Below, piece after piece: positions 3,121 through 62,991 of a stretch of 64,000 nt of DNA (within the stretch, counting starts at the first letter, position 1; the number at the start of each line of letters is the position of its first letter). This DNA comes from a bacterium. Lineage in GTDB: Bacteria > Patescibacteriota > Minisyncoccia > Phycocordibacterales > UBA2100. The DNA is taken from positions 94,458 to 158,457 of the forward strand of contig JAYPJF010000001.1 in NCBI GenBank assembly GCA_038128225.1, written 5' to 3'. The translations under genes and the position numbers were made by a program. Below the pieces are notes generated by a model. The model worked only from the letters and a program-made list of their open reading frames with translations, was not told the DNA's origin and did no database searches.

Positions 3121-4554
3121 CTAGTTGGAAATAACTACCGAGACACTTTCAAGATTCGAGTTCGAGGGAGAACCTGTTCGCAGCGAAACAATGTATGTGC
3201 CCGCTGATGCGTATGTGTGCGTGAACTCTTTAGTCGTAACCGCGGCAGAGCACGAACCTGCACTCTGAGAAACAGCGGAGGTCCCATCACCCCACTCCAA
3301 TTCATAGTAGCTGCATGGTGACGCAATCTGGAACGTGCTTCGCATTTTGCGCGGATTATTATCAACACCAGGAACGAGTGTGAATTGCGTGTCTACCGTT
3401 GGCTGCTGTGCTGTGCCCGAGGTAGTAATTACCTGCGTCTGCGCAAGCTGCGCCTGTCCGGCACTTACCTGCTGTGCCGTCCCGCGGTATAAAGATGCAC
3501 TGAAAGATCCTCCATACTCATACCGGTGCGTTACTGAATACGTGCGCGGGGCACAAGAACCCGAATTGTAATAAAGTTCGGCATGCGTTCCGTCACCAAA
3601 AGCTAGTGTGTACGTCCCCCCCGCGCACTGTGAATCTTGGTTGATGGTCGCGCTGAATTGCGCAGTGAACGGTGCGTTGCCGCTCGCGTCTGCAACCGAG
3701 AGCGTACCGTACGCTGTTGGCGAAGGTAGTATTGGCGTTGGTGTAGGCTGAGTTGTTTGTCCGGTACCGACATTTATTACAATCGAGGAAGTGCGTGTTC
3801 CTGTTGAAATAGTAACTGGGTAGACACCAGGTACCGGATATGTGTGCACGTATGATTGCGTTAATTCATTACAGTACCCTGCCCCCACCGGTAAAATCAC
3901 GAGCGGCGATCCGTCCCCGTAATTTATAGTGTACGTAGCAGCTTGGCATGATTTAACAGTATTCGCGGTTGCGGTAATAGTTACCGTAAGAGGAGCAGGC
4001 CCAGAAACAGGCGAGGCTTTAAGGTATGCGCCTACTTGTCCTCCTGTTTGGTACCCGTATTGGTAAGCCGATTGGACAACACATCCTTCTGCAAGCGCCT
4101 TCTGTGTACGCGGACCAACGCATCCATACCATTCCCCTACCCATCCTGGCGGCGCATTAATACCGCAGGCTTTTTGAAAACTAGTAACCGCCGCTATAGT
4201 TAGAGGGCCGAACGTTCCAGAAACAACCCCCTCCGGGTAAATGTTCTTATCCTGCGCGAGAAACCGTTGCAGAGCCGCAACTTTCTCACCAGTTGCGCCT
4301 TCGTGTATGTGCTCTCCAAGAAACAGTCCTCCACTAAAAATAGAGCTGCCAGAAACACTGCCTGAAGGTAGCGTCGTTGGCGCAACAGGAGTGGTGACTG
4401 ACCCTGGAATGCTTGTTAGCTCTGCTTGAAGTGCTTGAATGCGCGCAAGAAGTGCCGAAACTTGTTGTTGTAGTTCAGTGAGGCTTTGTGCAGAGCTGAG
4501 CCATGGTACGGAAACAAGCACCGCAAGAGACAGAACGGCAAGGTATCTTTTCAT
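3121..4554 (-). CDS. Secreted protein: signal peptide, coiled coil, peptidoglycan-binding-like domain, and three PKD-like repeats
   Basis: The start is refined to the internal Met (MKRYLAVLSLAVLVSVPWLSSAQS, a signal peptide). The 4662 start would overlap the tRNA. Coiled coil LTELQQQVSALLARIQALQAEL. PGBD-like motif GEKVAALQRFLAQDKNIYPEGVVSGTFGPLTIAAVTSFQ. Three repeats carry (Y/F/W)GDG(S/T)...HTY, a PKD-like signature. Confidence 0.7.
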   Translation of the reverse strand: MKRYLAVLSLAVLVSVPWLSSAQSLTELQQQVSALLARIQALQAELTSIPGSVTTPVAPTTLPSGSVSGSSIFSGGLFLGEHIHEGATGEKVAALQRFLAQDKNIYPEGVVSGTFGPLTIAAVTSFQKACGINAPPGWVGEWYGCVGPRTQKALAEGCVVQSAYQYGYQTGGQVGAYLKASPVSGPAPLTVTITATANTVKSCQAATYTINYGDGSPLVILPVGAGYCNELTQSYVHTYPVPGVYPVTISTGTRTSSIVINVGTGQTTQPTPTPILPSPTAYGTLSVADASGNAPFTAQFSATINQDSQCAGGTYTLAFGDGTHAELYYNSGSCAPRTYSVTHRYEYGGSFSASLYRGTAQQVSAGQAQLAQTQVITTSGTAQQPTVDTQFTLVPGVDNNPRKMRSTFQIASPCSYYELEWGDGTSAVSQSAGSCSAAVTTKEFTHTYASAGTYIVSLRTGSPSNSNLESVSVVISN

Positions 4555-11843: not shown

Positions 11844-13202
11844 CTATTCGACGATAACGGTAATGCTCTTGCTTGCCATTGGCTGCCCACCGGGCACGGT
11901 GCTGCCTGTTTTCACCTTTGCGGTGAAATGAATCTGATACGTTCCCGCAGTGACGAATGTGTACGTAATACTCGAGCCTACTTTTGAGGTAAGGATGCCT
12001 GTGCTCACCGTTGCCCCGCTTGTTTGCGAACCCCAGATTTCAATTGATTGTTCAAGAGTCCCTGTGCCACTCGCTGAGAACGACCACGTCCCGGATTGCC
12101 CTGCAGAAAGTTTCGTCGGACCAGATATATCGCCAATGGTCGGCTTGCTGACACAACTGCCCGTGTACACAACATTCGCGCGGGCCGCTTTTGCAGCACA
12201 TGTATTTGTATATGTTTTTGGTTCCTGCTGCATACAGAGCATTGTTGCAACGCCTGTACCCCCAGCGTTCGCACATCCAGGAGGAATCGCGCACACAGGT
12301 GCATAGTCTTGTGTACACACACCTGTTTGTGACGGTACTTGCTGCCCTCCATTTCCGCCATCGATACTCCCTGGTGACGCAGCGCCCGATGTATCAGAAG
12401 TTGAAGTTGCTGTAGGGCACATAAACGCACATGAAGGTGGTGTACGCCCGACCCAGCTGCCGTCTGAGCACTTCTTTACATCCTGCGTACACACGTCCTT
12501 GCCTGTGTTTGAGAATGTTCCCGTACAATACCCCTGCATATATACCGCACACGCTTTTGCGGTGCACACTGCTGCTCCACCAGATGTTTCGCGTGAGCAC
12601 GTATTACAACCATCGAACCACGCTTTACAAGTTGCACCCGGTACAAATGGGCGTGTGTCGTTAAACGAACTTGGGCTTATCGAATTTATACGGACAGTCG
12701 CTGTGGCATCTGTAGCTACGGTGCATCGTGTTGCTATTTTCGCGCGCGTTTGTTTCCCAACAACTCCATACCCGTTTGTACTTGGAGATCCGGAGCAGAT
12801 GCCGAGTTCTCGACATTGAAACTTTTTGACTGCAGTTTCCGTAGCTGGTCCAAATGTCCCAACAATAGTGGTGTTAAAATCTCCCGTACCCACTAAAAAA
12901 CGTTGTAGTTCAGAAACAGACGTGTCGGCTGTTGAATCTTGCCCACCACGTTTTATATCTCGAGCAATTTGCGGACACACGGTGTCTGTATGCGCTGCTG
13001 CTGTGTTTGATGTCATACGCGTGTCAACTGAAACACCTCCCGCCGCATTGATCTGCGCCTGTAGAGAATTGACGAGCGCCATAAGCGACGCGATGCTGTC
13101 CAACAAGTCAGTCTGAGTTTGTGCTCGTGCCGAAGAAACTGCAAAAAACATGCTCGCAATCATTACGCCGATCACGAGAAACTTTGATGTATAAACGCGC
13201 AT
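11844..13202 (-). CDS. Secreted protein: signal peptide, coiled coil, PG-binding-like domain, Cys-rich modules including a Kazal-like domain, and a C-terminal beta (PKD-like) domain
   Basis: The start is refined to MRVYTSKFLVIGVMIASMFFAVSSARA (signal peptide). Coiled coil LQAQINAAGG. PGBD-like motif VSELQRFLVGTGDFNTTIVGTFGPATETAVKKFQ. Kazal-like CTQDYAPVC...KTYTNTCAAKAARANVVYTGSC. The module CKAWFDGCNTCSR is shared with the 61168 gene. Confidence 0.7.
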   Translation of the reverse strand: MRVYTSKFLVIGVMIASMFFAVSSARAQTQTDLLDSIASLMALVNSLQAQINAAGGVSVDTRMTSNTAAAHTDTVCPQIARDIKRGGQDSTADTSVSELQRFLVGTGDFNTTIVGTFGPATETAVKKFQCRELGICSGSPSTNGYGVVGKQTRAKIATRCTVATDATATVRINSISPSSFNDTRPFVPGATCKAWFDGCNTCSRETSGGAAVCTAKACAVYMQGYCTGTFSNTGKDVCTQDVKKCSDGSWVGRTPPSCAFMCPTATSTSDTSGAASPGSIDGGNGGQQVPSQTGVCTQDYAPVCAIPPGCANAGGTGVATMLCMQQEPKTYTNTCAAKAARANVVYTGSCVSKPTIGDISGPTKLSAGQSGTWSFSASGTGTLEQSIEIWGSQTSGATVSTGILTSKVGSSITYTFVTAGTYQIHFTAKVKTGSTVPGGQPMASKSITVIVE

Positions 13203-13777: not shown

Positions 13778-14254
13778 TTAATACGAATATCCGTACGGAT
13801 AGGTGTAACTATACGGATACGCATAGTTGTAATTGTAGTTGTACGGGTAGTAATTTTGGTATGGGTAATATGTTTGGTTCGAATTGTAGCCTGGGTAGGT
13901 ATTCACACAGCCCGTCGTCGTATATGTCGTACAGGTATTGTACGGATAGGTGTAATTGTATGGGTATGTATAGTTTGTATTCGTGTACGGATAGTAATAA
14001 TTGTAGTTATAGTTGTACGGGTATGCGTAGGCGTTCGAATATGTGTAATTGTACTGCCCATACTGGCTACAATTTGGTGAGCCAAAGTTTGGCGTTGCTA
14101 CAACGCGATAGGTTACCTGCCCCGTGTATGGATCCCTACCCTGTACTTGATAATTGTATGTGTAGCAGTTGTTGACCGAATAATCATAGTCCGCAAATGC
14201 AAAGCCCGGAATAATCATCGCCACCGCAACCATAAATAAGGAGAGTTTTTTCAT
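13778..14254 (-). CDS. Secreted low-complexity Tyr/Asn/Thr/Pro-rich protein with YPYNYNY-type repeats
   Basis: Signal peptide MKKLSLFMVAVAMIIPGFAFA. Mature part is about 30 % Tyr, with repeated YPYNYNYNY / YTYPYNYTYPY units. The DNA carries the corresponding tandem repeats. Confidence 0.6.
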   Translation of the reverse strand: MKKLSLFMVAVAMIIPGFAFADYDYSVNNCYTYNYQVQGRDPYTGQVTYRVVATPNFGSPNCSQYGQYNYTYSNAYAYPYNYNYNYYYPYTNTNYTYPYNYTYPYNTCTTYTTTGCVNTYPGYNSNQTYYPYQNYYPYNYNYNYAYPYSYTYPYGYSY

Positions 14255-22157: not shown

Positions 22158-24962
22158 CTAAATCCATCCACTGTTTGGTTTGAGTGCTTCCGGATTATAC
22201 GCCCCTGTAGAACTCTTATATCGGGCACGTATCTCTTCCTCAACCTGTTCACGTGGCCGCCCATAGCGCTCATATGATTGCTGTTTCAGTATGTCCACAC
22301 GCGAAAAATCAGTTTTCTCCGGTTTTAGTGTCTCAATATTGAATGGCTTTACCGGCCGACCACGTACCAAAAGCCGCAGGTACGCGTTGTAGTTATCGAG
22401 ATGCATAATATCTTGCGCCGCGAACTCTGGTTCAAACATAGTTGAAAGAAACTCCGCATCTTTTTCACCCACACGGAACACGCAGCGCGTACCTACGTTT
22501 CCAAATACCGCGTCTCGAATCTCATCGGTAAGTTGATCGATAAATTGGTGTGCGATACTTAGTACAAGACGGTATTTCCGTGCTTCCGAAAGAATCGTGG
22601 CAATAGACGGCGTTGTAAAATTCTGGAACTCGTCGATGTACATGTAGAAAGGTTTAATTTCGGCTTTCCCCACTAGATCCACACGCGAGAGTGCTGCGTT
22701 TAATATTTTTCCAACAAAGACAAGCCCTAAAAGCGACGAGTTTAATTCTCCCAGGCGCCCTTTTGAAAGATTGATAAGTAATATTTTGCGCTCGTCCATG
22801 ACGCTGCGGAAATCAAACGCGGAATGCTCTTGGCCAATAATGGGGCGCATAATTTCGTTTGCCAAAAAAACATCGAACTTGTTTGTCACATATTGTCCAA
22901 ACGCCTCGAGTTTTTGTTCTCCTTCCAATTTTGTAGCAATCCCCTGCCAAAATTCAACAATGAGCGGATTTTTACAGCGTGCAATTTTTAAGTTGCGAAA
23001 CGCTTCGTTGGTAAAAATGCGCGTAATATCAACCATCGTGTTTCCTGTTGCGGGGTCGTCCATGACCAAAAGCGCTGAGTTACGGAAATACTGCTCAAAA
23101 GCCGGACCAATTGATTCCGGAACCGAGCCATAGAGTTTTTTGAAAATGCCGATGAGCTCGTCGACTAAAAAAGTCTTTTGTTCTGGACGCCTCAGATCGT
23201 ATTCGAGCATATTAAGCCCCATCGGTCGTGGCAAATACCCGGGGTCAAAATATATAACATCTTGCTCGCGTTCTGGAGGAACCGCGGCAAGAATGTCTTG
23301 AATATCAGAACCGTGCGGATCGATATAACACACCCCTTCTCCGTTTCGGATATCTTGAATGATCATATTCTTCATCAGGCTCGACTTACCTGTGCCAGTC
23401 TGCCCGACTTCATAAAAATGGCGGAACCGATCTTCTTCCGCAAAATATACTTTTTGTTCTGACGCACCATGGCGATTGATCCCGAGTACTATCCCCTCTT
23501 CGGGCATGTCGGTTGGCGCAGGCGACTGTTTTGCACGCGACTGCTTCAATTCACGCGACGTGCGCACCCCCTCTGCGGTCAAGTGGTATATAGTAGTAAG
23601 TTCAGAAAAATTTAATGGGAGCGCGCGCGATACCTCCGGAACGCGCATTATGAAGTTGTTGATAACCCCTTCGCGTGTCCAACTTCCTGCTTCTTTAAAA
23701 ACAATACTGTTGCCCTGCGGGTCGCTAAACTGATTAAATGTTGACGCAAGGTTTTCTAAAATATCGCGGGCGCGCGCTTGCGTCTTCGCCGAAGCAAGAA
23801 TGCGGATATTCACCGGAACAATTCGGTTAGAGACTTTTTTACCAACACGTTCGGTGAGTTCTTGTTCAGCAGAACTCTCGGTGTTCTTCTTCTCGGGCAA
23901 AATTAATCCGGTGGTGAAGTCCTTTGCAAATTCACCAAGCATGGTTTCTGGGACTTTTCTTGCCTCCTTGAAAGACTTCCCTTTATGAAGCGCCTTAAGC
24001 ATTTTCTTGTAGTGCGCATTGTAGCGGTCCCCTTCGTTCCCTACGATGATCTGGAGCGCCGCACCTTCATCATGTTTGTGCAATTTTGCGAACGCTGAAA
24101 GCATGACGTTCATCGGGTCATGTTGGAACGTATCATACGTTTTAAGCGGCAACGCGGGATGTTCGGAGAGTTGTGCGTACGCGGCCACATGTTCACCATG
24201 CGAATTAAAAATATTATAGTCTCCGCGGCGCTCGTTCAGTTTTGCGTTTGGAAAGATTGAAAACAGGTGTCGTTCAAACAAATCCTTCTTGTTTGAGGGA
24301 ACCGCAATAAAAAACACCGCTTCTTCAGAACCTTCCGCGACAGCAATCTCCATTGAAAAGACGTTACTTTTACTCGAGGCGTTACCGCTCGCGATCGCAA
24401 GGAGCCCCGCGTACAGTTGCTCCATCGAAGCAAGAAGGTGCGCCAGGTCTCGTTGTTGTTCTTCTTTCTGTGTCGCTCCTTGCGGTTGAACTTCAAACAG
24501 CGTCATATGCAGCGCCCGCCACGTTTGTCCTTGTTCCTGTAAATAACCACCGACGGGCAACCCTTCGGCAACATAGCGCACCAACGCACGATGAAAATCA
24601 TCTTGGACATGTGGGTTACGCATGCGCGCCGAAACCGAAAGTGCATTTCTAATGCCGCGATCCTGCACCACGCGAAGCAACGCATCAATCTGTACGTCGT
24701 GCGTTTCTGGTTCTAGTTTGAGTGCCTCACGCACCACATCGTGCGTTGGCGTAATAACGGTCTCGTGCAACACTTCTGCCGGCGGCGTCTCGTCATATCT
24801 TTCGATTTCGCGCTTCGCGATTCGTTCACGCTCAAAAGAATCGTCATGCACCCCGAGCTCTTTCTCTTTTTCAGCAACACGCTTGCGCAAATAAACCAAC
24901 TCCTCTTCCGGAGTCGTAAAACGCTGCGGCGTATCGAGCGATATACGGGATCGTTCCGCCAT
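22158..24962 (-). CDS. Large P-loop ATPase of the VirB4/TraG/HerA-FtsK superfamily with an N-terminal domain of unknown function of about 450 aa
   Basis: Walker A GQTGTGKSS, Walker B YMYIDEF, and a C-terminal RKYRLVLSIAHQFIDQL motif. No transmembrane segment. Confidence 0.5.
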   Translation of the reverse strand: MAERSRISLDTPQRFTTPEEELVYLRKRVAEKEKELGVHDDSFERERIAKREIERYDETPPAEVLHETVITPTHDVVREALKLEPETHDVQIDALLRVVQDRGIRNALSVSARMRNPHVQDDFHRALVRYVAEGLPVGGYLQEQGQTWRALHMTLFEVQPQGATQKEEQQRDLAHLLASMEQLYAGLLAIASGNASSKSNVFSMEIAVAEGSEEAVFFIAVPSNKKDLFERHLFSIFPNAKLNERRGDYNIFNSHGEHVAAYAQLSEHPALPLKTYDTFQHDPMNVMLSAFAKLHKHDEGAALQIIVGNEGDRYNAHYKKMLKALHKGKSFKEARKVPETMLGEFAKDFTTGLILPEKKNTESSAEQELTERVGKKVSNRIVPVNIRILASAKTQARARDILENLASTFNQFSDPQGNSIVFKEAGSWTREGVINNFIMRVPEVSRALPLNFSELTTIYHLTAEGVRTSRELKQSRAKQSPAPTDMPEEGIVLGINRHGASEQKVYFAEEDRFRHFYEVGQTGTGKSSLMKNMIIQDIRNGEGVCYIDPHGSDIQDILAAVPPEREQDVIYFDPGYLPRPMGLNMLEYDLRRPEQKTFLVDELIGIFKKLYGSVPESIGPAFEQYFRNSALLVMDDPATGNTMVDITRIFTNEAFRNLKIARCKNPLIVEFWQGIATKLEGEQKLEAFGQYVTNKFDVFLANEIMRPIIGQEHSAFDFRSVMDERKILLINLSKGRLGELNSSLLGLVFVGKILNAALSRVDLVGKAEIKPFYMYIDEFQNFTTPSIATILSEARKYRLVLSIAHQFIDQLTDEIRDAVFGNVGTRCVFRVGEKDAEFLSTMFEPEFAAQDIMHLDNYNAYLRLLVRGRPVKPFNIETLKPEKTDFSRVDILKQQSYERYGRPREQVEEEIRARYKSSTGAYNPEALKPNSGWI

Positions 24963-25747: not shown

Positions 25748-26340
25748 GTAATATGCAACACTGTACGAATCTGAGCGTGAATCTCCTCAATAGGAGGTCT
25801 TGCATCAATATAATGCATAGTGCGCCCCCGCTCTTCAAGAAGTTTTATCGCTGGCAGCGTCTCGGTTTCATACCAATCAAGTCGTCGCTGTATTTTTTGA
25901 TCATCACTATCATCACTACGGCCGCGCCCATGAAGACGCCTAACGGCTTCTTCGCGAGGCAACTGAAGCACGACGACATGATACGGGACTCTTCCAAAAA
26001 ACTGAAGCGCATCGTCAAGCACGATTGACTGCTCAACTCGGCGGGCTACGCCGTCAATGATCAAGTGTTCTCGATTCGTAAACTCCTGCAAAAAGAAGGT
26101 GGTGATGATATGTGAGGGTATGAACGCGGGGAGCAATCCCCCAGCGTTAATCACCTCTCCCACTCGTTTACTCGCGTCTCCCGAACCTGCGGCAAATCCT
26201 CGCAATCGCTCTCCCATTTCGAGTCCGAGCACAGGAGTATCGGAGTCTCTTTCCAAAAGACCTTCAAGGAGTTTCGCCTGCGTGCCTTTACCAGCGCCTT
26301 GCGGCCCGAAGAAAACTACCGTAATTGGAGCATCAATCAT
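25744..26340 (-). CDS. adk: Adenylate kinase
   Basis: P-loop FFGPQGAGKGTQ. The start is refined to MIDAPITVVFF so it does not overlap the gmk-like gene. Confidence 0.8.
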   Translation of the reverse strand: MIDAPITVVFFGPQGAGKGTQAKLLEGLLERDSDTPVLGLEMGERLRGFAAGSGDASKRVGEVINAGGLLPAFIPSHIITTFFLQEFTNREHLIIDGVARRVEQSIVLDDALQFFGRVPYHVVVLQLPREEAVRRLHGRGRSDDSDDQKIQRRLDWYETETLPAIKLLEERGRTMHYIDARPPIEEIHAQIRTVLHIT

Positions 26341-26920
26341 GCCCGTCAATATACCCCTCTTTCTTAAGAATCTCAACCACACTTTTGATGGCCTCATCAA
26401 GTTTTCCTTGCTCGTTTTTAATAACGCGATCATACCAAGGCATGTATTCTTGAATTTCTCGCGTAGCAATTTTCTTGCGCGCTTCCCATTCTTCATCACT
26501 CATGATCTGTCGTGCCCGCACTCGTTTTTCCAATTCCTCCAGTGAGTGTGGCTGAATAAAGAGCGTCAATGCATCGAATTCTTTTTTAAGATACCGCGCG
26601 CCAATAATATCGACTTGCGCAAGGATGGTTTTTCCCTGTGCAAGTAATTCGCGCAAATGAGGCAAATAAATACCGTAGTGAGCGCCCGTTTCGACAAACC
26701 GATGTTCGGGAATTTCTCCTGCATCAAGCGCGTTGAGAAACTCCTCTTCTGTAAAAAATAAGTAGTCTTTCCCCTGCTCTTCCCCGTCTCGCCGCGTTCG
26801 CGTCGTTGCGGTAACCAAGCGCACGCACTGTGAACAGTGCTGCAATACACCTTCAAGAATTGCATTTTTTCCACTTGCAACTGTTCCCGAAATAACCACA
26901 ACTCGTGGCTTAGACTGCAT
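26333..26920 (-). CDS. Guanylate kinase-like paralog 2
   Basis: TATTRTRRDGEEQGKDYLFF, the GMP-binding block. The P-loop ISGTVASGKNA has Lys but Asn in place of Ser/Thr. Confidence 0.65.
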   Translation of the reverse strand: MQSKPRVVVISGTVASGKNAILEGVLQHCSQCVRLVTATTRTRRDGEEQGKDYLFFTEEEFLNALDAGEIPEHRFVETGAHYGIYLPHLRELLAQGKTILAQVDIIGARYLKKEFDALTLFIQPHSLEELEKRVRARQIMSDEEWEARKKIATREIQEYMPWYDRVIKNEQGKLDEAIKSVVEILKKEGYIDGHD

Positions 26921-27491
26921 ACCCCTCTGTACGCAGAATACGGATAATCGCGGTCACGGTGTCGTCAAATTCTCCATCGTCGTTAAATACAATATGATCG
27001 TATTCTTTGTCAGATTCAATGATTTCCTGTGACGCTTGTAAAAGGCGCTTGATGACTTCGTCTTTCTGGATCGTTGGGTCACGCCGCACTAAGCGGTTGT
27101 ATAGAGTAATCATTGATTTCGGCTTGATGAAAATCGTTGTCGCTCTGTACGACTGCTTGAAAAAACGGGCACCGTGCACGTCAGTATTCACAATCACTGT
27201 TTTTTCCGAAGACAATTTCGCCTCGAGGTCAGGCAGGTACGTGCCGTAATGCGCGTCACGGTCTCGAACAAAAACATGTTCAGGAATTGAGCCGTCTTGT
27301 ACATGTTCAAAAAATTGCTCTTTGCTAAAGAAATAATAATCGCGTCCTTCTTGTTCTCCAGGACGCGGCGTTCGAGTAGTTGCAGAAACAGCACGTGTAA
27401 ATTGAGGGTACGCGAGAACAAGCTCGTTGGTAAACGTTGATTCTCCGGAACCCGTTGGACCGGCAAGTACCACCACCCGTTTTCTGCTCAT
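26910..27491 (-). CDS. Guanylate kinase-like paralog 1 (P-loop lysine replaced by Glu)
   Basis: SATTRTPRPGEQEGRDYYFF. The P-loop GPTGSGEST has Glu where the Walker A Lys normally sits. Confidence 0.65.
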   Translation of the reverse strand: MSRKRVVVLAGPTGSGESTFTNELVLAYPQFTRAVSATTRTPRPGEQEGRDYYFFSKEQFFEHVQDGSIPEHVFVRDRDAHYGTYLPDLEAKLSSEKTVIVNTDVHGARFFKQSYRATTIFIKPKSMITLYNRLVRRDPTIQKDEVIKRLLQASQEIIESDKEYDHIVFNDDGEFDDTVTAIIRILRTEGYAV

Positions 27492-41080: not shown

Positions 41081-42253
41081 CTATTCCCCACCATGCTCCA
41101 TCTCTAGCGTATACAAGCCAGCACGATCAGGCACAACTCCATGAACAACCATATCGTTTGCAATATACGTATGATCCCCGCTAACGTATAAGTTATAGAG
41201 TTTCTGAGCTTCTTGCGTGTTAGGGATTACTTCAAGAGTTTCCACTACAAGTTCGCCATCTGCAAGAAGGATAACGTCTCCAACATCCAGCTGTCCAACA
41301 CGTCCTGCAAGCTGATCATATGCTTCAACTTCAGCCATTGACGGGTTTGCTGCTTTCCACCCTTCAGCGGTCATCACAGGGTGGTTGTCGGTCATAAACG
41401 GCTCACCTCCATTTATACGAATCAGGTGCTGTGGTTTGCTTTCCCACAGCATTGTGTGGTCGAGTGCAAGCACGACATTACTACCACCATGGGGAGCGCG
41501 CACATGGTCACCAACACGAATTTCGTAAATCGGTTTTTGCGAACCGTCTTCCATTGTCACCAAGGTTTCTTTAGTGAAACAAGAACAACGCCCGCCACTT
41601 GGGCATCCTGAAGAAGTGAGTGTGCCATTAACGCATCTCGTTACGTTCACACCGTTAACACTTCCAGTACAACCGCTTGTACAAATACTCACAGCCGATA
41701 CAGCACCATTGGGTACATCCCCACACGTAGTGGTACTGCAGACAATACCGTCTCCGGCACTATTTGCCTTACAATACCTACTTGCCGTGAGCGTACTGAC
41801 TTGTGGGTCTGTTTCCGTGTATGAAAGCAGTGGCTGGTCGGAGGTACACGTTACCTGTGTCCCGTTAGTGGTACACCACTTCCCACTTGTAAGCGTACCT
41901 ACCTGAGGGTCTGATTCACTTACTGAGGTGAAGTTGGTCCACCCCCCACCGCTGTTTTTGTATTCAATGACCCCCGCATTATCCCTGATACCGTATCCGG
42001 CCGATCCTGCAGTCGTACCAAAATTTAAGTATCGAGAGGCACCGGAGAGAATCGCGTTTCCGTATACCGCGAGCGAGTTTACACCAAGACCCGCGTTCTT
42101 GATCTGATCAGTTGTCCCAACATTAACGGGAGCCGACACGTTTCCATTTGGAGGTGTCTGCGTAGGGCCCGTCCAGGCATACACAACACCAAGCGTCGCA
42201 AAAATTACAGCTCCTGTTATGAACGACGCGATGTGTGAAAGGGGTTTGGGCAT
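41081..42253 (-). CDS. Secreted protein with N-terminal Cys-containing repeats and a C-terminal Hint (hedgehog/intein-like, BIL-type) domain
   Basis: N-terminal hydrophobic segment. Repeats ESDPQVGTLTSGKWCTT and ETDPQVSTLTASRYCKA. The Hint domain starts CFTKETLVTMEDGSQKPIYEIRVGDHV and ends YNLYVSGDHTYIANDMVVHG, matching the intein N- and C-terminal splicing blocks. Confidence 0.65.
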   Translation of the reverse strand: MPKPLSHIASFITGAVIFATLGVVYAWTGPTQTPPNGNVSAPVNVGTTDQIKNAGLGVNSLAVYGNAILSGASRYLNFGTTAGSAGYGIRDNAGVIEYKNSGGGWTNFTSVSESDPQVGTLTSGKWCTTNGTQVTCTSDQPLLSYTETDPQVSTLTASRYCKANSAGDGIVCSTTTCGDVPNGAVSAVSICTSGCTGSVNGVNVTRCVNGTLTSSGCPSGGRCSCFTKETLVTMEDGSQKPIYEIRVGDHVRAPHGGSNVVLALDHTMLWESKPQHLIRINGGEPFMTDNHPVMTAEGWKAANPSMAEVEAYDQLAGRVGQLDVGDVILLADGELVVETLEVIPNTQEAQKLYNLYVSGDHTYIANDMVVHGVVPDRAGLYTLEMEHGGE

Positions 42254-59075: not shown

Positions 59076-59540
59076 ATGAGTGTCTGTATTTTTTGCGCCA
59101 TTGTTCGCGGAGATGCACCAAGTCACAAAATTTGGGAAGATGAAAAACATCTTGCGTTCCTTTCTATTTTCCCTAACACCGAAGGTTTCTCAGTCGTAGT
59201 CACCAAAGAACATTACCCGAGCTATGTTGCAGACCTACCGAAAGATGTCCGCACCGATCTGTTTAACGCTGCGCTCACTGTGGCAAAAAAAATCGACGCT
59301 GCATTTTCAGACGTAGGGAGAACAGGCATTTTGTTTGAAGGCTTTGGCGTCAATCACGTGCACGCCAAGCTGTTTCCCATGCACGGAACAAAAACCGACC
59401 TGTGGCAGCAACATACGTCGAAGGAGAAAAGGTTTTTCGAGCACTACGAAGGCTATATTTCTTCACACGATGCCGCCCGCGCCGATGACGCCGCGCTTGC
59501 AAAGACAGCTGAGTTGATCCGCACTACACCTATTGCGTAG
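59076..59540 (+). CDS. HIT family (histidine triad) protein
   Basis: CIFCAIVRGD and the HVHAKLFP triad. Confidence 0.7.
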   Translation: MSVCIFCAIVRGDAPSHKIWEDEKHLAFLSIFPNTEGFSVVVTKEHYPSYVADLPKDVRTDLFNAALTVAKKIDAAFSDVGRTGILFEGFGVNHVHAKLFPMHGTKTDLWQQHTSKEKRFFEHYEGYISSHDAARADDAALAKTAELIRTTPIA

Positions 59541-61113
59541 CACAGTCGCCGTACTGGTACGTGCCGCTCCCTGAGAGATACCCGTCGGTACAGTACCGAA
59601 TCTGTTTATATGGTTCACAAGTCTCACCCACTGGGGCAACTGCGCGAGAATAAAAGGCACGCGAAGCGCCGTGCGCCACCTCTTTCCCGTCAAGGGTACA
59701 TACTGCTGCGTCTCGTGCACTACACGTCGCGAAGGCGTAGATATTGCTGCCGCCCAACACGCCGTTGGTACATGTGCGCACCTCCTCACTCTGAGCGCAG
59801 GTGCGCCCAAATGGCACTTCAGATGCCGAGTAAAACTTTCCAGTTTTCGTATGCTCAACCAAAACACCATCGAGAATGCACGCTTTTTGATTTGATGGGG
59901 CACAGTATGAGAATTTATAAGAAGCTGTTCCGTTTAGTACTCCATTAGTACACGTACGCGACTGTTTTTTGTTTGCACAGCTCGCAATCGTATCAGTGCG
60001 GTCCGAATAAAAATCCTTACTGGCTCCATGGGCGACCTTCACGCTATCAAGCGTACACGAAAGTCCCGGGGTAACGGAGCACGCAGGGTGTACGTATGCT
60101 GAATCGCCGGATACATATCCGTCGTTACATACGCGCACAAGTTTGAAGTCGTCACATGATTGATTGTAAGGCACAATCGTTTTCGAAAAGAAACTACGCT
60201 GAGCACCATGAGTAAGCGTCGTACTTGTGGCGCTCGATGCAACCACCTCACACGAACGAGCGCTGGTCACCGCACACGTAGCGAATCGATACGTTGGGTC
60301 GCCCGACAACGTGCCGTCGTTACAGGTTCTTGTTTGGCCAAATGGCGCGCACTGTTGACCAAACAGCACGTCTCGTTGCTTGTAGAATGTCTTGCTCTGA
60401 CCGTGTGTGACTGTAACCCCATCAACCGTACACGACCCAGGAGTTGTGTTCGCTGTGCATGTAGGGAATGAATACGCAGGGTCTCCTGAAAGTACTCCGT
60501 TCATACACTTCCGGGGGATGCCGAGACATGATGCCCCAAAAGGAACTACACCCGATGTATATAGCGTGCGCGTTTCACCACTTGCAAGCACTGTCGTTCC
60601 AAGAATACAGTTGAGTACAGAAGGGGTGGGGGGAGGCGGCGATGGAATCACCACTGGAGTCCCGAGAGCACACACACGCACTAGTGCTGCCCGTGTTGCG
60701 GGACCAACCGCACCAAAACCGGTAGTCTCGACACTGCCGGAACTTACTATGTTCTGCTGGATTTGGAAACGTTCAACGGCGCGCGCGGTCAACGCTCCAA
60801 AATATCCGGTAATTTGAGCTTCAGGGTATAGTGCGGGTGTTTTCGCTAAAAATTGCTGCAACGCAGAAACATCGGTCCCTGAAACCCCTGGTTTAAGATT
60901 TCTGGCAATTGTCGGGCATGACCCTTGCGAAGTTGTTGTAGGAGTAACCGGAACCGTACCTCCAGTCCTTGCAGCCTGAATGCGTTGCTCTAATTGTGCA
61001 ACTTGTTGTAGTAGTGCTTGAATCTGAGCCGTGAGCTGTTCTGAGGTTTGCGCATGCACACTCCCCACACTTACGATAAACCCGAGTAAGGCGAGCGCCA
61101 GGATATTTCTCAT
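59530..61113 (-). CDS. Secreted protein: signal peptide, coiled coil, PG-binding-like domain, and six tandem four-Cys repeats of about 60 aa
   Basis: Signal peptide MRNILALALLGFIVSVGSVHA. Coiled coil LTAQIQALLQQVAQLEQRIQAAR. PGBD-like DVSALQQFLAKTPALYPEAQITGYFGALTARAVERFQ. Six repeats C.hDG..V.HG.S..FY......PFG..C.....R.C.NG.LSG...Y.F..C. Confidence 0.7.
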   Translation of the reverse strand: MRNILALALLGFIVSVGSVHAQTSEQLTAQIQALLQQVAQLEQRIQAARTGGTVPVTPTTTSQGSCPTIARNLKPGVSGTDVSALQQFLAKTPALYPEAQITGYFGALTARAVERFQIQQNIVSSGSVETTGFGAVGPATRAALVRVCALGTPVVIPSPPPPTPSVLNCILGTTVLASGETRTLYTSGVVPFGASCLGIPRKCMNGVLSGDPAYSFPTCTANTTPGSCTVDGVTVTHGQSKTFYKQRDVLFGQQCAPFGQTRTCNDGTLSGDPTYRFATCAVTSARSCEVVASSATSTTLTHGAQRSFFSKTIVPYNQSCDDFKLVRVCNDGYVSGDSAYVHPACSVTPGLSCTLDSVKVAHGASKDFYSDRTDTIASCANKKQSRTCTNGVLNGTASYKFSYCAPSNQKACILDGVLVEHTKTGKFYSASEVPFGRTCAQSEEVRTCTNGVLGGSNIYAFATCSARDAAVCTLDGKEVAHGASRAFYSRAVAPVGETCEPYKQIRYCTDGYLSGSGTYQYGDCATQ

Positions 61114-61167
61114 GCACTTATTCTAAACGACTCGCAGTAGCATCATTTACGCACTGTGGATAGTAGT

Positions 61168-62991
61168 CTACCGTGCCGCGATGCACGAAGCGGTAAATGT
61201 TGTAGACCAGTAGTGATGATTCGCCCCCGCTGCACAGTGATACGCTCCGCCGCACATACCACCTACTGCAGTGTTATCGAATGTACATGCTCCCTCCGCG
61301 GTTGTGGGACACGGTGCGAATGCACAATTGGGTCCCGTGCGCCCTACATAGCTTCCGTCTGGACATTGTTTTGCTTCTTGTGTACAGACCACATCAGTTG
61401 CGGCTGCGCACTCACCCGCATACTTAAACACCGCTTTTTCGGCTTCCATTTGGCACTGATTTCCATATGTTTTTCCGTACTGACATTCATATGGATACGA
61501 ACCGAGAGCAAATTTCGAAACGAGGCAGTAGTATGGTGTCGCACAAACAGGCGCGTACTCCATTGTACAAGCAACAGGACCCCCACTTGAAACAGTTACC
61601 GTGATGGTTGTTTTTGCTTCTTTTCCTTCAGGGTCGCGCACCACAGCAGTTACTGTATACATCCCAGCCTTCGAATATGTATGAGTGAAAGTAGTTACTT
61701 GTCCAAAGCCGAGCGCGCTCGCGACTGCGTCAAGTGCATTCCAAAACCCAGTTTCGTCCCCCCAGGTCACTTTGTATGAGAGTGTTTTTTGTTCCGGGTC
61801 ACGTGCCTCTACGCTCCAGGTCCCTGTTTCGTTCACCGTAAGATGTGTCGGCCCGGAAAAACCACTAACCACCGGCGGTTGATTTTCGCGAACACCGTCG
61901 AAATATTCTTTACAGTACCCGGGAGCTTGCCATATACATGCCCTAAGCGTACACATCGCGACTGCGCCTACGGTGTCTCGAGAACAATCGTTACATCCAT
62001 CGTACCACGTCTTGCATGTCGGTGCTGGTTCAAACGGTTTATTGTCTATGCGACACTGACCTTCATATAAAAGCGTTGCGCCAGCAGCTTCCATAACACA
62101 AGTGTTTGAATATGTTTTTGGATCTGGTTGTTTGCACATCGCAGCACAATACGCTCCCGGAGGGCAGGTGTTTTCGCAACCTGTAGGTTGCCCACACACA
62201 GGACGGTATTCTTTTGTGCACGCCACGTTTCCACCAACGGTGATTTGAATTTTCGCCACCACCTCCGAACTCACCGGTGCCATACACAATGGGTTACCGA
62301 GGCACGGGTCGGTTATTTTGTTTAACGTCGCCGTGTACGTTCCCGCTTGCGTATACGTGTGTTTGTTTTCCCCAGGAGAGACACAAGCGTCAGCAGGTGC
62401 ACTACATTCAGTAGCAGCCTCTCGCCCTCCATCTCCGTACTCAACTAGATACGAAACACCTGCCGGTCGCAGACCACCAACCCACGAATTGAAAACTACA
62501 GTAAGTGGCGCCGCTCCTGTTCGCGGGTTCACCTCGAAAAGACCGTGTACACCGCACCACTTTTTAAAATAATTTTGCGTAATCGGCCCCACCACGCCCA
62601 CTGATTCAATTCCTTCACTGGATTGCAGTCTCTTTATCGCGGCGAGAGTCAGGCTTCCAAAGTATCCTGTTGGAGAGACGCCAAGATAGCCCTTGTCTTT
62701 AAGAAATTCCTGGAGCGCCGTGATGTGCTCACCAGAAGTACCTTGCCCCCAATTGCTGTTCTGGGCAAAAAAATCACATACGCGCACCCGTGCAGGATTG
62801 GCGGAACTCACTTGTATAACTGAGACACCAGTCGTCGAAGCCTGCTGCATGACGCCGATTTGTTGTCGCAGTTCAGAAATCCGACCTAAAAGAGAGCGGA
62901 TCTGTGTTTGTAATTCATCAACCGTGACCGCAGGTACAACAGTCGGAACCATGAGTAAAACTACCGCAAACCCAAGGATGTGTTTCTTCAT
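61168..62991 (-). CDS. Secreted protein: signal peptide, coiled coil, PG-binding-like domain, PKD-like domains, and two Kazal-like domains
   Basis: Coiled coil LQTQIRSLLGRISELRQQIGVMQQ. PGBD-like HITALQEFLKDKGYLGVSPTGYFGSLTLAAIKRLQ. PKD-like YKVTWGDETG and YLVEYGDGG. Kazal-like CTKEYRPVCGQ...KTYSNTCVMEAAGATLLYEGQC and CTMEYAPVCA...KTYGNQCQMEAEKAVFKYAGEC. Module CKTWYDGCNDCSR. Confidence 0.7.
   Translation of the reverse strand: MKKHILGFAVVLLMVPTVVPAVTVDELQTQIRSLLGRISELRQQIGVMQQASTTGVSVIQVSSANPARVRVCDFFAQNSNWGQGTSGEHITALQEFLKDKGYLGVSPTGYFGSLTLAAIKRLQSSEGIESVGVVGPITQNYFKKWCGVHGLFEVNPRTGAAPLTVVFNSWVGGLRPAGVSYLVEYGDGGREAATECSAPADACVSPGENKHTYTQAGTYTATLNKITDPCLGNPLCMAPVSSEVVAKIQITVGGNVACTKEYRPVCGQPTGCENTCPPGAYCAAMCKQPDPKTYSNTCVMEAAGATLLYEGQCRIDNKPFEPAPTCKTWYDGCNDCSRDTVGAVAMCTLRACIWQAPGYCKEYFDGVRENQPPVVSGFSGPTHLTVNETGTWSVEARDPEQKTLSYKVTWGDETGFWNALDAVASALGFGQVTTFTHTYSKAGMYTVTAVVRDPEGKEAKTTITVTVSSGGPVACTMEYAPVCATPYYCLVSKFALGSYPYECQYGKTYGNQCQMEAEKAVFKYAGECAAATDVVCTQEAKQCPDGSYVGRTGPNCAFAPCPTTAEGACTFDNTAVGGMCGGAYHCAAGANHHYWSTTFTASCIAAR

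What the first reader, a model, noticed from the sequence alone, without database searches (positions are those of the whole stretch)
59530..62991. Paralogous family of secreted proteins with a signal peptide, coiled coil, PG-binding domain and variable Cys-rich, PKD or Kazal modules; four copies in the window
Four genes (3121..4554, 11844..13202, 59530..61113 and 61168..62991, the last two in tandem) share the same N-terminal architecture. Each has a signal peptide, a short Gln/Leu-rich coiled coil, and a PGBD_1-like domain matching xxLQxFLxxxGxxxxxxxTGxFGxxTxxAVxxFQ. Their C-terminal halves diverge into PKD-like (xGDGS), Kazal-like or tandem four-Cys repeat modules. This family expansion combines cell-wall anchoring with variable extracellular binding or inhibitor domains. 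It fits an episymbiotic or surface-interaction lifestyle and could be a diversifying adhesin/inhibitor family.
Basis: partly seen in the sequence, partly recalled or inferred. Interest (0 to 1): 0.7.

Follow-up and report, generated by a model that had tools for sequence, protein, structure and literature searches.

The report
Wall-anchored protease-inhibitor family in a Parcubacterium
Four secreted proteins of an uncultured ultra-small (CPR/Parcubacteria) bacterium share a peptidoglycan-binding anchor. Two of them carry heads that closely resemble animal Kazal and pacifastin serine-protease inhibitors, so they are probably a cell-wall-tethered protease shield; no paper in the library I searched describes this for these bacteria.

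Summary
Four minus-strand genes (A 3121-4554, B 11844-13202, C 59530-61113, D 61168-62991) share a signal peptide, a ~3.5-heptad coiled coil and a PG_binding_1 domain. That domain scores above Pfam's cut-off in all four.

- **Passenger modules.** A carries 3 PKD domains. D reads PKD, Kazal-like, pacifastin-like, PKD, Kazal-like, then two small Cys modules. B reads pacifastin-like, a 4-Cys module, Kazal-like, PKD-like. C carries six copies of an unnamed 55-residue four-Cys module.
It did not see the pacifastin-like module, or how canonical the reactive loops are. D has ACT-K-EYR, which equals ovomucoid P4-P3' apart from P1. It also has ACT-L-RAC, which matches locust PMP-C.
- **Conservation.** In 83 orthologues P1 is Lys in 75 (head 1), Leu in 82 (pacifastin head) and variable in head 3.
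- **Distribution.** D and C are conserved, syntenic genes of Kaiserbacteria-like Parcubacteria. The PGK-HIT slot holds 1-4 family genes. B is lineage-specific.
- **Reading.** This is a peptidoglycan-tethered display family. D and B are most likely standard-mechanism serine-protease inhibitors. A and C probably bind something or act as spacers.
- **Limits.** Inhibition, peptidoglycan binding and targets are untested.

I rate it a new variant of known kinds, of moderate interest.

The parts
61168..62991 (-). Gene D (607 aa): signal peptide, coiled coil, PGBD, PKD, Kazal-like, pacifastin-like, PKD, Kazal-like, CPDGS module, C-terminal Cys module
   Evidence: ORF. Pfam. More than 240 homologues with the same architecture. 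AF2 mean pLDDT 79.2.
62839..62991 (-). D signal peptide (residues 1-21) and coiled-coil helix (residues 22-51)
   Evidence: Sequence read. AF2 helix 24-51. Aligned with the other three.
62554..62778 (-). D PG_binding_1 domain (residues 72-146), bracketed by invariant Cys72 and Cys146
   Evidence: Pfam 37.9 bits against 23. C72 and C146 are invariant in 120 sequences.
62236..62553 (-). D PKD domain 1 (residues 147-252)
   Evidence: PKD_4/PKD above threshold. Foldseek hits to PKD structures, TMt 0.7-0.78.
62053..62232 (-). D Kazal-like head 1 (residues 254-313). Reactive loop V-A-C-T-K260-E-Y-R-P-V-C, P1 Lys.
   Evidence: P1 is Lys in 75 of 83 orthologues; profile against PDB: GmSPI-2 at E 6.8e-8, then ovomucoids.
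61906..62040 (-). D pacifastin-like head (residues 318-362). C326...C-T-L349-R-A-C352...C360, P1 Leu.
   Evidence: all 10 PDB sequences reported at E<=10 are pacifastins, best E 5e-4. (33 of 33 modules hit Pacifastin_I only). (P1 is Leu in 82 of 83).
61582..61896 (-). D PKD domain 2 (residues 366-470)
   Evidence: PKD_4 stretch 370-467. Foldseek.
61402..61581 (-). D Kazal-like head 2 (residues 471-530). V-A-C-T-M477-E-Y-A-P-V-C, P1 Met.
   Evidence: P1 entropy 2.70 bits: M33, A14, L10, T7....
61294..61392 (-). D 'CPDGS' four-Cys module (residues 534-566), unassigned
   Evidence: 50% identical to B residues 237-283. Found in about 20-25 of 120 D homologues. No PDB or Pfam match.
61171..61293 (-). 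D C-terminal four-Cys tail (residues 567-607), unassigned, low model confidence
   Evidence: pLDDT 41-57. Only 10 of 120 homologues have a segment of comparable length there, and only one clearly resembles it.
59530..61113 (-). Gene C (527 aa): signal peptide, coiled coil, PGBD, six four-Cys repeats
   Evidence: (pLDDT 86.7).
60670..60918 (-). C PG_binding_1 domain (residues 66-148), bracketed by Cys66 and Cys148
59539..60612 (-). C six tandem ~55-residue four-Cys beta modules (residues 168-525), spacing C-x26-C-x8-C-x15-C. This is an unnamed domain family.
11844..13202 (-). Signal peptide, coiled coil, PGBD (76-160), pacifastin-like (192-226, P1 Ala215), CPDGS module (237-263), Kazal-like (294-350, P1 Gln298), PKD-like (354-452).
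   Evidence: Only >=89%-identical relatives were found.
3121..4554 (-). Gene A (477 aa): signal peptide, coiled coil, PGBD (Pfam stretch 88-139), three PKD domains
   Evidence: (PKD_4 58.6 bits, 3 stretches).

Best explanation
The four genes encode Sec-exported envelope proteins of a Kaiserbacteria-like Parcubacterium. They are built on one scaffold. After signal-peptide cleavage, the mature N-terminus is a short leucine-zipper-like helix followed by a disulfide-bracketed PG_binding_1 three-helix domain. I infer that this cassette holds the protein non-covalently on peptidoglycan, probably as an oligomer, which would add avidity. The variable C-terminal passengers then project outward.

In D and B the passengers are standard-mechanism (Laskowski-type) serine-protease inhibitor heads. 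These are two-disulfide non-classical Kazal modules and a pacifastin-like module, spaced by PKD Ig-like domains. D therefore presents three substrate-like loops:
- P1 Lys, suited to trypsin-like enzymes.
- P1 Leu, suited to chymotrypsin- or subtilisin-like enzymes.
- P1 Met, variable among orthologues.

Each loop would bind tightly in a protease active site. The most likely role is a cell-wall-tethered shield that protects surface structures from extracellular serine proteases. A (3 PKD) and C (six four-Cys modules) use the same anchor to display binding or spacer modules of unknown ligand.

Shown here: the architecture, the homology of each module, the conservation of the reactive loops, the synteny and the copy-number variation.

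Inferred only: secretion, peptidoglycan binding, oligomerisation, inhibition, and the identity of the targets.
For: Cassette:
- PG_binding_1 is above threshold in all four.
- Leave-one-out HMM E 7e-19 to 3e-28.
- The Cys pair flanking the domain is invariant in 120 D homologues.

Kazal heads:
- The loop A-C-T-x-E-Y-x-P-V-C has 7 residues between the two Cys, as in GmSPI-2, where P1 is the second residue after the first Cys (PMC4169406).
- D's ACTKEYR equals the P4-P3' sequence of turkey ovomucoid third domain (ACTLEYR) except at P1.
- The module profile hits GmSPI-2 (2m5x/4hgu) at E 6.8e-8 over its full length, then ovomucoids at 1e-5 to 1e-3.
- 30 of 31 excised modules hit Kazal_1; the only other family matched was the related Kazal_2, in one member.
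- About 40 of the 120 listed D homologues carry a precomputed PF00050 hit.

Pacifastin head:
- All 10 PDB sequences reported at E<=10 are pacifastins (PMP-C 1gl1_I at E 5e-4). 'aCTLrAC' aligns on 'ACTLKAC'.
- 33 of 33 excised modules hit Pacifastin_I and nothing else.

Selection pattern in 83 orthologues:
- The scaffold residues (Cys, P2 Thr, P2' Tyr, P4' Pro) are fixed in head 1; in head 2 the Cys, Tyr and Pro are fixed and P2 is Thr in 72 of 83.
- P1 is Lys in 75 of 83 (head 1) and Leu in 82 of 83 (pacifastin head).
- P1 of head 2 is hypervariable (2.70 bits). This is the classical pattern for contact residues of canonical inhibitors.

Family context:
- D orthologues occur in 40 species-representative Patescibacteria genomes.
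- The order T4P genes, TIM, PGK, [1-4 cassette genes], HIT, RecJ is conserved.
- Other cassette proteins carry PKD, Laminin_G_3, Kazal-like or pacifastin-like passengers.
Against: - No biochemical evidence exists for inhibition or for peptidoglycan binding.
- Pfam's curated thresholds are not reached on the full-length proteins for Kazal_1 (16.8 against 21) or Pacifastin_I (17.4 against 27.9).
- The Kazal modules lack Cys I and V and carry a 12-20 residue Cys-containing insertion.
- The pacifastin-like module has an invariant Arg where pacifastins have Cys 4, and an extra C-terminal Cys.
- Kazal/follistatin-like modules in some eukaryotic proteins are not inhibitors.
- No secreted serine protease gene was seen in the window or in the flanks examined. 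The target is therefore unknown.
- Strong conservation of two P1 residues fits a fixed target, possibly an endogenous one, better than an arms race.
- A and C carry no inhibitor module, so the inhibitor role applies to only half of the family.
Confidence: 0.5

Rival explanations
1. The heads are true inhibitors, but they act on the bacterium's own secreted or wall-associated serine proteases. They would hold these enzymes inactive at the wall, as a regulator or latency factor, rather than defend against foreign proteases.
For: P1 Lys (75 of 83) and P1 Leu (82 of 83) are almost fixed across orthologues that are only 40-50% identical. That suggests a conserved, co-inherited target. D sits in a conserved housekeeping neighbourhood at one D-type gene per genome in the scan, a scan that used a single D-specific pattern.
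Against: No candidate protease gene lies next to D, C or B in the window or in the related loci whose gene tables were read. The third head and lineage-specific B (P1 Ala and Gln) vary, as expected for foreign targets.
Confidence: 0.22
2. The Cys-rich modules do not inhibit anything. The family is a set of adhesins or surface-matrix proteins. The PG-binding domain grips a host's, or the cell's own, wall. The PKD, Kazal-like, pacifastin-like and four-Cys modules serve as rigid, protease-resistant binding or spacer units, as follistatin- and agrin-type Kazal modules do.
For: A and C use the same anchor with purely Ig-like or beta-module passengers. Other family members carry a ConA-like lectin domain (Laminin_G_3). 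The four-Cys repeat also occurs in a 998-aa protein of the epibiotic predator Pseudobdellovibrio exovorus, and in giant proteins with up to 43 matched stretches of the repeat. Type IV pilus genes lie a few genes upstream.
Against: It does not explain why the exact canonical inhibitor loops (ACT-x-EY-x-PVC and ACT-L-[RK]-AC) are preserved while the rest of each module drifts. No ligand or host is known.
Confidence: 0.2
3. The four proteins are not a real family. The N-terminal resemblance would be generic signal-peptide and coiled-coil composition.
For: The coiled-coil segment alone is low-complexity (Q/L/A-rich), and it gives only weak LPP/ZapB-type hits.
Confidence: 0.01

Closest known systems
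Non-classical two-disulfide Kazal inhibitors (Galleria GmSPI-2, PDB 2m5x/4hgu; horseshoe-crab CrSPI-1) and ovomucoid third domain (MEROPS family I1)
   Same: Same reactive-loop length and sequence: C-T-P1-E-Y-x-P-V-C. D's ACTKEYR matches ovomucoid's ACTLEYR. The TY-x-N-x-C helix start and the terminal G-x-C are shared. Like GmSPI-2, Cys I and V are missing.
   Different: There is a 12-20 residue insertion with 2 or 4 extra Cys between Cys III and the TY motif. The modules are embedded in a 450-600 aa bacterial wall-binding protein. Pfam threshold is reached only by some excised modules. Activity is untested.
Pacifastin family (locust PMP-C, SGCI, SGTI; MEROPS I19; PF05375)
   Same: The core motif D-x-C-N-x-C...C-T-L-[KR]-A-C aligns residue for residue with PMP-C, including the Leu-Lys reactive site. 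AF2 predicts three short strands.
   Different: Cys 4 is replaced by an invariant Arg, and a new Cys lies 7-10 residues after Cys 6. Spacing from Cys 1 to Cys 2 is shorter. The module sits in bacteria and is fused to Kazal, PKD and PGBD modules. A 2026 survey (PMC13388995) listed 23 bacterial pacifastin-like hits, from Myxobacteria and CPR, found by structure only. 'Kaiserbacteria' does not occur in its text or supplements.
Compound multi-family inhibitors of animals (for example WFIKKN: WAP, Kazal, Ig, Kunitz, NTR) - from general knowledge
   Same: Several unrelated canonical inhibitor modules are strung with Ig-like spacers in one secreted polypeptide.
   Different: Different module set, a bacterial host, and a peptidoglycan-binding anchor.
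Bacterial envelope protease defences: ecotin and bacterial alpha-2-macroglobulin; also oomycete Kazal-like effectors EPI1/EPI10 - from general knowledge
   Same: The proposed role is the same: an envelope-located or secreted inhibitor that neutralises foreign serine proteases.
   Different: The folds are unrelated (ecotin, A2M). The oomycete effectors come from a different kingdom and have no wall anchor.
PG_binding_1-containing wall proteins (SleB N-terminal domain 6tci, phiKZ gp144, CtpB, Zn DD-peptidase)
   Different: In those proteins the domain targets an enzyme to the wall. Here it carries non-enzymatic passengers, is preceded by a coiled coil, and is closed by a conserved Cys pair.
Fibronectin type I, CCP (sushi) and VWC modules (only for the C repeat)
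   Different: No sequence relation was found: no PDB hit at E<=10 even with a 97-sequence profile. Foldseek matches are insignificant. The Cys spacing differs.

Membership tests
PG_binding_1 (PF01471) | Pfam HMM score at or above the gathering cut-off (23 bits) | tested here: met
   A 29.9, B 29.2, C 29.1, D 37.9 bits.
PG_binding_1 (PF01471) | Three-helix-bundle fold, as in the SleB or phiKZ gp144 PG-binding domains | tested here: met
PG_binding_1 (PF01471) | Binds peptidoglycan | not testable with these tools
   Needs a sacculus pull-down.
Kazal inhibitors (MEROPS I1; PF00050) | Pfam Kazal_1 score at or above the gathering cut-off (21 bits) | tested here: inconclusive
   Full-length D scores 16.8 bits, below the cut-off. 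An excised orthologue module scores 22.8 bits, and 30 of 31 excised modules hit at E<=0.01. About 40 of 120 homologues have a precomputed PF00050 hit.
Kazal inhibitors (MEROPS I1; PF00050) | Reactive-site loop of 7 residues between Cys II and Cys III, with P2 Thr, P1' Glu and P2' Tyr | tested here: met
   VACTKEYRPVC, VACTMEYAPVC and GVCTQDYAPVC. Conserved in 83 orthologues. Aligned to GmSPI-2 and ovomucoid. P1 position as in PMC4169406.
Kazal inhibitors (MEROPS I1; PF00050) | Six Cys forming I-V, II-IV and III-VI disulfides (classical pattern) | tested here: not met
   Cys I and V are absent, and extra Cys lie in an insertion. This matches the non-classical two-disulfide subgroup (GmSPI-2), not classical Kazal.
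Kazal inhibitors (MEROPS I1; PF00050) | Tight-binding inhibition of a serine protease | not testable with these tools
   Needs enzyme assays.
Pacifastin inhibitors (MEROPS I19; PF05375) | Pfam Pacifastin_I score at or above the gathering cut-off (27.9 bits) | tested here: not met
   17.4 bits (D) and 16.6 bits (B) on the full proteins. 21.7 bits for the excised D module. 33 of 33 excised modules hit it as the only family, best E 9.9e-7.
Pacifastin inhibitors (MEROPS I19; PF05375) | Six-Cys pattern C-x(9-12)-C-N-x-C-x-C-x(6-8)-C-T-x3-C | tested here: not met
   The fourth Cys is an invariant Arg (R338 in D). An extra invariant Cys (C360) follows. Spacing from Cys 1 to Cys 2 is 6 residues.
Pacifastin inhibitors (MEROPS I19; PF05375) | Sequence homology to solved pacifastins, including the C-T-P1-P1'-x-C reactive site | tested here: met
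   All 10 PDB sequences reported at E<=10 are pacifastins, E 5e-4 to 0.15. CTLRAC aligns on CTLKAC.
PKD domain (PF00801/PF18911) | Pfam score above the gathering cut-off and an Ig-like beta-sandwich fold | tested here: met
   A: PKD_4 58.6 bits. D: 43.4 bits. D model against PKD structures 4xed and ColG, TMt 0.71-0.78. B scores only 16.7 bits, below the cut-off, but is 32% identical to D's PKD2.
Fibronectin type I / CCP / TSP1 / VWC (for the C repeat) | Significant sequence or fold match to the family | tested here: not met

The most novel reading that the evidence does not exclude
Kaiserbacteria-like CPR bacteria may coat their own peptidoglycan with an oligomeric, multi-headed Kazal-plus-pacifastin inhibitor. 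This would be a conserved, near-core surface defence that lets an ultra-small, wall-exposed cell survive next to protease-secreting hosts or neighbours. The near-identity of its reactive loops to ovomucoid and locust pacifastins could reflect a bacterial reservoir, or an inter-kingdom transfer, of inhibitor families long regarded as animal-specific. In parallel, the 55-residue four-Cys repeat of C would be a large, undescribed extracellular domain family shared with epibiotic predators and used for cell-cell contact.
Probability: 0.2. Interest if true: 0.75.

Novelty: new variant of a known kind. Interest (0 to 1): 0.55.

Why it matters
- **CPR biology.** CPR bacteria are abundant, mostly uncultured, and poorly understood at their surface. 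This family is a conserved, cheaply testable set of surface proteins with a concrete predicted activity.
- **Inhibitor evolution.** It shows by sequence, not only by fold, that pacifastin-like and non-classical Kazal heads with intact canonical reactive sites exist in bacteria, fused in a single protein.
- **Annotation.** Hundreds of database entries now called 'peptidoglycan-binding protein' or 'PKD domain-containing protein' could be re-annotated.
- **A new domain family.** The four-Cys repeat has at least 2,394 clusters at 50% identity and no Pfam model.
- **Practical use.** Small disulfide-rich inhibitor heads with defined P1 residues are also useful protein-engineering scaffolds.

Tried and rejected
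- **AlphaFold-database fold search for C.** The afdb50 library was not available.
- **Identifying the CPDGS module.** There was no PDB or Pfam match.
- **Foldseek of the whole D model.** PKD and Ig-like hits dominated, so it could not test the small inhibitor heads.
- **Promoter and terminator scan around C and D.** Counts were no higher than in shuffled sequence, and nothing lay between the two genes. Upstream regions show no clear Shine-Dalgarno motif to settle the start codons of A and B.
It is not on record. The 475-aa form is.
- **Search for a partner protease.** Pfam scans of 30 neighbouring window ORFs and the flanks of related loci found none.
- **Literature.** Searches for Kazal with Patescibacteria or CPR, and for Patescibacteria, type IV pili and RbmA together, found nothing relevant.
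- **Weak hits considered and rejected.** The NCBIfam hit of D to 'CPR_pilus_PamR' (25 bits against 300) is generic Ig/PKD-like similarity. The LPP and ZapB hits reflect coiled-coil composition only.

Full report
**1. Observation**

The window (64 kb, 49.9% G+C) holds four minus-strand ORFs at the stated coordinates:
- A, 3121-4554, 477 aa
- B, 11844-13202, 452 aa
- C, 59530-61113, 527 aa
- D, 61168-62991, 607 aa

C and D are 54 bp apart in tandem. The first ~155-165 residues of all four align at 28-34% identity.

An HMM of this region finds exactly these four among 487 six-frame ORFs. In leave-one-out tests the omitted member is recovered at E 7e-19 to 3e-28, and no other ORF of the window is listed at E<=10.

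Each protein starts with a typical Sec signal. It has a basic n-region, a hydrophobic core, and small residues at -3/-1. This was read from the sequence, since no predictor was available.

Next comes a Q/L/A-rich helix with 3-4 spacing of Leu/Ile, modelled as a helix at residues 24-49 in C and 24-51 in D. A Thr/Pro/Ser linker follows, then the PG-binding domain. In B, C and D that domain is bracketed by a Cys pair. In D the pair is C72 and C146, invariant in 120 homologues. None of the four has a lipobox or a C-terminal hydrophobic anchor (sequence).

**2. Passenger modules**

A carries three PKD domains (PKD_4 58.6 bits, 3 stretches).

D reads PKD, Kazal-like, pacifastin-like, PKD, Kazal-like, then a 28-residue 'CPDGS' four-Cys module and a poorly modelled four-Cys tail. 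The PKD domains match solved PKD structures (Foldseek TMt 0.71-0.78).

B shares four of these modules with D in a different order:
- pacifastin-like, 53% identity
- CPDGS, 50%
- Kazal-like, 40%
- PKD-like, 32%

C carries six repeats of ~55 residues with spacing C-x26-C-x8-C-x15-C. They are modelled with pLDDT above 90 as small all-beta units.

**3. The inhibitor heads**

*Kazal-like heads.* These modules carry the loop A-C-T-x-E-Y-x-P-V-C:
- D: VACT-K260-EYRPVC and VACT-M477-EYAPVC
- B: GVCT-Q298-DYAPVC

Seven residues separate the two Cys. In GmSPI-2, P1 is the second residue after the first Cys (PMC4169406). D's ACTKEYR is identical to the ovomucoid third-domain segment ACTLEYR except at P1 (alignment).

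A profile of 31 modules hits Galleria silk inhibitor GmSPI-2 (2m5x/4hgu) at E 6.8e-8 over its whole length. It then hits ovomucoids, anemone elastase inhibitor and other Kazal inhibitors at 1e-5 to 1e-3. Thirty of 31 excised modules hit Pfam Kazal_1 at E<=0.01; the only other family matched was the related Kazal_2, in one member.

Like GmSPI-2, a subtilisin and proteinase K inhibitor with two disulfides, these modules lack Cys I and V. Unlike it, they carry a 12-20 residue insertion with one or two extra Cys pairs.

*Pacifastin-like head.* The second head type has the consensus C-K-x-W-[YF]-D-G-C-N-x-C-S-R-...-C-T-L-[RK]-A-C-...-Y-C. Its profile retrieves only pacifastins from the PDB. All 10 sequences reported at E<=10 are pacifastins, with PMP-C 1gl1_I at E 5e-4, and 'CTLRAC' lies on the 'CTLKAC' reactive site. 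All 33 excised modules hit Pfam Pacifastin_I and nothing else (best E 9.9e-7).

Two definitional features fail:
- The Pfam gathering score is not reached.
- The fourth Cys is an invariant Arg, with a new invariant Cys downstream.

I therefore call it pacifastin-like with a probably rewired disulfide. I do not call it a certified member.

*Selection pattern.* In 83 D orthologues with the order head 1, pacifastin head, head 2:
- The scaffold residues (the Cys, P2 Thr, P2' Tyr, P4' Pro) are essentially fixed in head 1. In head 2 the Cys, Tyr and Pro are fixed and P2 is Thr in 72 of 83.
- Head 1: P1 is Lys in 75 of 83.
- Pacifastin head: P1 is Leu in 82 of 83.
- Head 2: P1 is hypervariable (M33, A14, L10, T7, E5...; 2.70 bits).

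A constant scaffold with contact residues that are either fixed or hypervariable is what canonical inhibitors show. It is hard to explain if the modules are mere spacers.

**4. Distribution and context**

*Source organism.* The exact C, D and 475-aa B proteins occur on public metagenome contigs. Homologues are named Parcubacteria, Kaiserbacteria, Paceibacterota or Minisyncoccia.

*D and C.* D has more than 240 homologues with the same architecture at 40-50% identity. A scan of one genome per species, using a single D-specific pattern, found it in 40 loci. All were in Patescibacteria apart from one 2.8-kb contig binned as Nitrotoga, probably a binning error. C has about 60 homologues, mostly with 6-7 repeats.

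*Synteny.* The gene order is conserved: type IV pilus ATPase and platform, a CarboxypepD_reg protein, unknowns, TIM, PGK, (NTP-transferase), [family genes], HIT, RecJ. Across the 40 species loci, the D locus with its 6-kb flanks holds 1-4 cassette genes. Their module content varies: Kazal 0-3, pacifastin 0-2, C repeats 0, 2, 3, 6 or 7. Further members carry PKD only, or a ConA-like lectin domain.

*Age of the paralogues.* The cassettes of C and D are closer to their own orthologues (median 110 and 104 bits) than to each other (54-57 bits). The C/D split is therefore old. B has only relatives that are 89% or more identical, with the same P1 residues. It appears to be a lineage-specific reshuffle of the same modules. 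The family thus mixes stable core members with local turnover, and 'diversifying' is only partly apt.

*Neighbours.* Genes near all four copies are housekeeping: RecG, FtsH, SmpB, IF3, SecY, ribosomal proteins, ComEC, RecJ, HIT, PGK. No protease gene is adjacent.

**5. The C repeat**

An exhaustive profile search found 2,394 cluster representatives at E<=1e-3, and 1,301 at E<=1e-10. One 2,688-aa protein has 43 matched stretches. Of 1,049 full-length repeats, 1,011 have exactly four Cys.

Partner domains include PG_binding_1, SASA esterase, DUF4214 and Sortilin/BNR propellers. One member is a 998-aa hypothetical protein of the epibiotic predator Pseudobdellovibrio exovorus.

**6. Mechanism proposed**

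- Shown: the architecture, module homology, loop conservation and synteny.
- Inferred: Sec export; non-covalent tethering to peptidoglycan through the PGBD; avidity from coiled-coil oligomerisation; and, for D and B, tight substrate-like binding of the three loops in the active sites of trypsin-like (Lys), chymotrypsin- or subtilisin-like (Leu) and variable-specificity (Met and others) serine proteases.

I favour protection of the exposed wall and surface organelles against foreign proteases (confidence about 0.5). Control of an endogenous protease is the main rival, and it is favoured by the fixed P1 residues. A non-inhibitory adhesin or matrix role is the second rival. It is favoured by A, C and the lectin-bearing relatives.

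**7. Comparison with what is known**

Each module type is known, as are PG_binding_1 anchors and multi-family compound inhibitors in animals. A May 2026 survey (PMC13388995) reported 23 bacterial pacifastin-like domains, from Myxobacteria and CPR. They were found by structure only, and their protein architecture or function was not discussed in the passages I retrieved. 'Kaiserbacteria' does not occur in its text or supplements.

Searches of the held library for Kazal with Patescibacteria or CPR found no description of this protein family. Public names are 'peptidoglycan-binding protein', 'PKD domain-containing protein' or 'hypothetical protein'.

What appears undescribed in the library I searched:
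- The fusion of Kazal-like and pacifastin-like heads on a coiled-coil and PGBD anchor, conserved across a CPR lineage.
- The sequence-level match of the reactive sites.
- The delineation of the four-Cys repeat family.

**8. Verdict**

I rate it a new variant of known kinds. Interest is moderate (0.55): the finding is directly testable and somewhat surprising for inhibitor evolution and CPR surface biology, but it is built from familiar parts and has no functional data.

Noticed in passing
window 41081-42253 (-): This 390-aa ORF has Hint/intein-type hits (Vint 2.9e-8, Hint 6.8e-8, Intein_splicing 3e-5). It lies among translation and ribosomal genes.
   Followed up: no
window 13778-14254 (-): This 158-aa ORF starts with a hydrophobic, signal-like N-terminus. 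The rest is almost entirely Tyr/Asn/Pro/Thr repeats (YPYNYNYNY...), with no Pfam hit. It lies 0.6 kb from paralogue B, and the same neighbour sits next to B on other contigs (L006, L007).
   Followed up: partly
window 26333-26920 and 26910-27491 (-): Two adjacent ORFs both match guanylate kinase in full (E 8e-28 and 8e-30). They sit next to an adenylate-kinase-like gene and SecY.
   Followed up: no
window 22158-24962 (-): This 934-aa ORF has only a TraG-D_C (coupling-protein-like) hit, inside a housekeeping region.
   Followed up: no
L009-L048 (D locus in 40 species-representative genomes); L014, L037: The D locus and its 6-kb flanks, the slot between PGK and HIT, hold 1-4 cassette genes. Their passengers differ and include a Laminin_G_3 (ConA-like lectin) domain. 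L037 holds a 1,307-aa ORF that combines the lectin domain with the PGBD and the inhibitor heads.
   Followed up: partly
window 62053-62232 (D Kazal-like head 1) compared with orthologues P0064-P0182: The window's head 1 carries the four-Cys insertion (GCENTCPPGAYCAAMC) that sits in head 2 in most orthologues. Its own head 2 has a different two-Cys insertion, shared with only a few homologues. This suggests module exchange or gene conversion within the gene.
   Followed up: partly
P0188/P0328 (WP_015469866.1, Pseudobdellovibrio exovorus JSS): The four-Cys repeat of C occurs 15 times in a 998-aa hypothetical protein of a cultured epibiotic predator. That organism could serve as a tractable system for studying the repeat.
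   Followed up: no
L039 (JBEBGP010000115.1, 2.8-kb contig labelled Candidatus Nitrotoga sp.): A D-type gene lies on a very short contig binned into a betaproteobacterial MAG. This is most likely a binning contaminant rather than horizontal transfer.
   Followed up: no
L001 1-6155; L002/L003 1-7249 (beyond the window's right end): Type IV pilus ATPase and platform genes, a large CarboxypepD_reg-domain protein and two or three ORFs of unknown function are conserved a few genes away from D, on the PGK side. D's weak NCBIfam hit to the CPR pilus protein PamR is probably generic Ig-like similarity. A functional link to pili was not tested.
   Followed up: no
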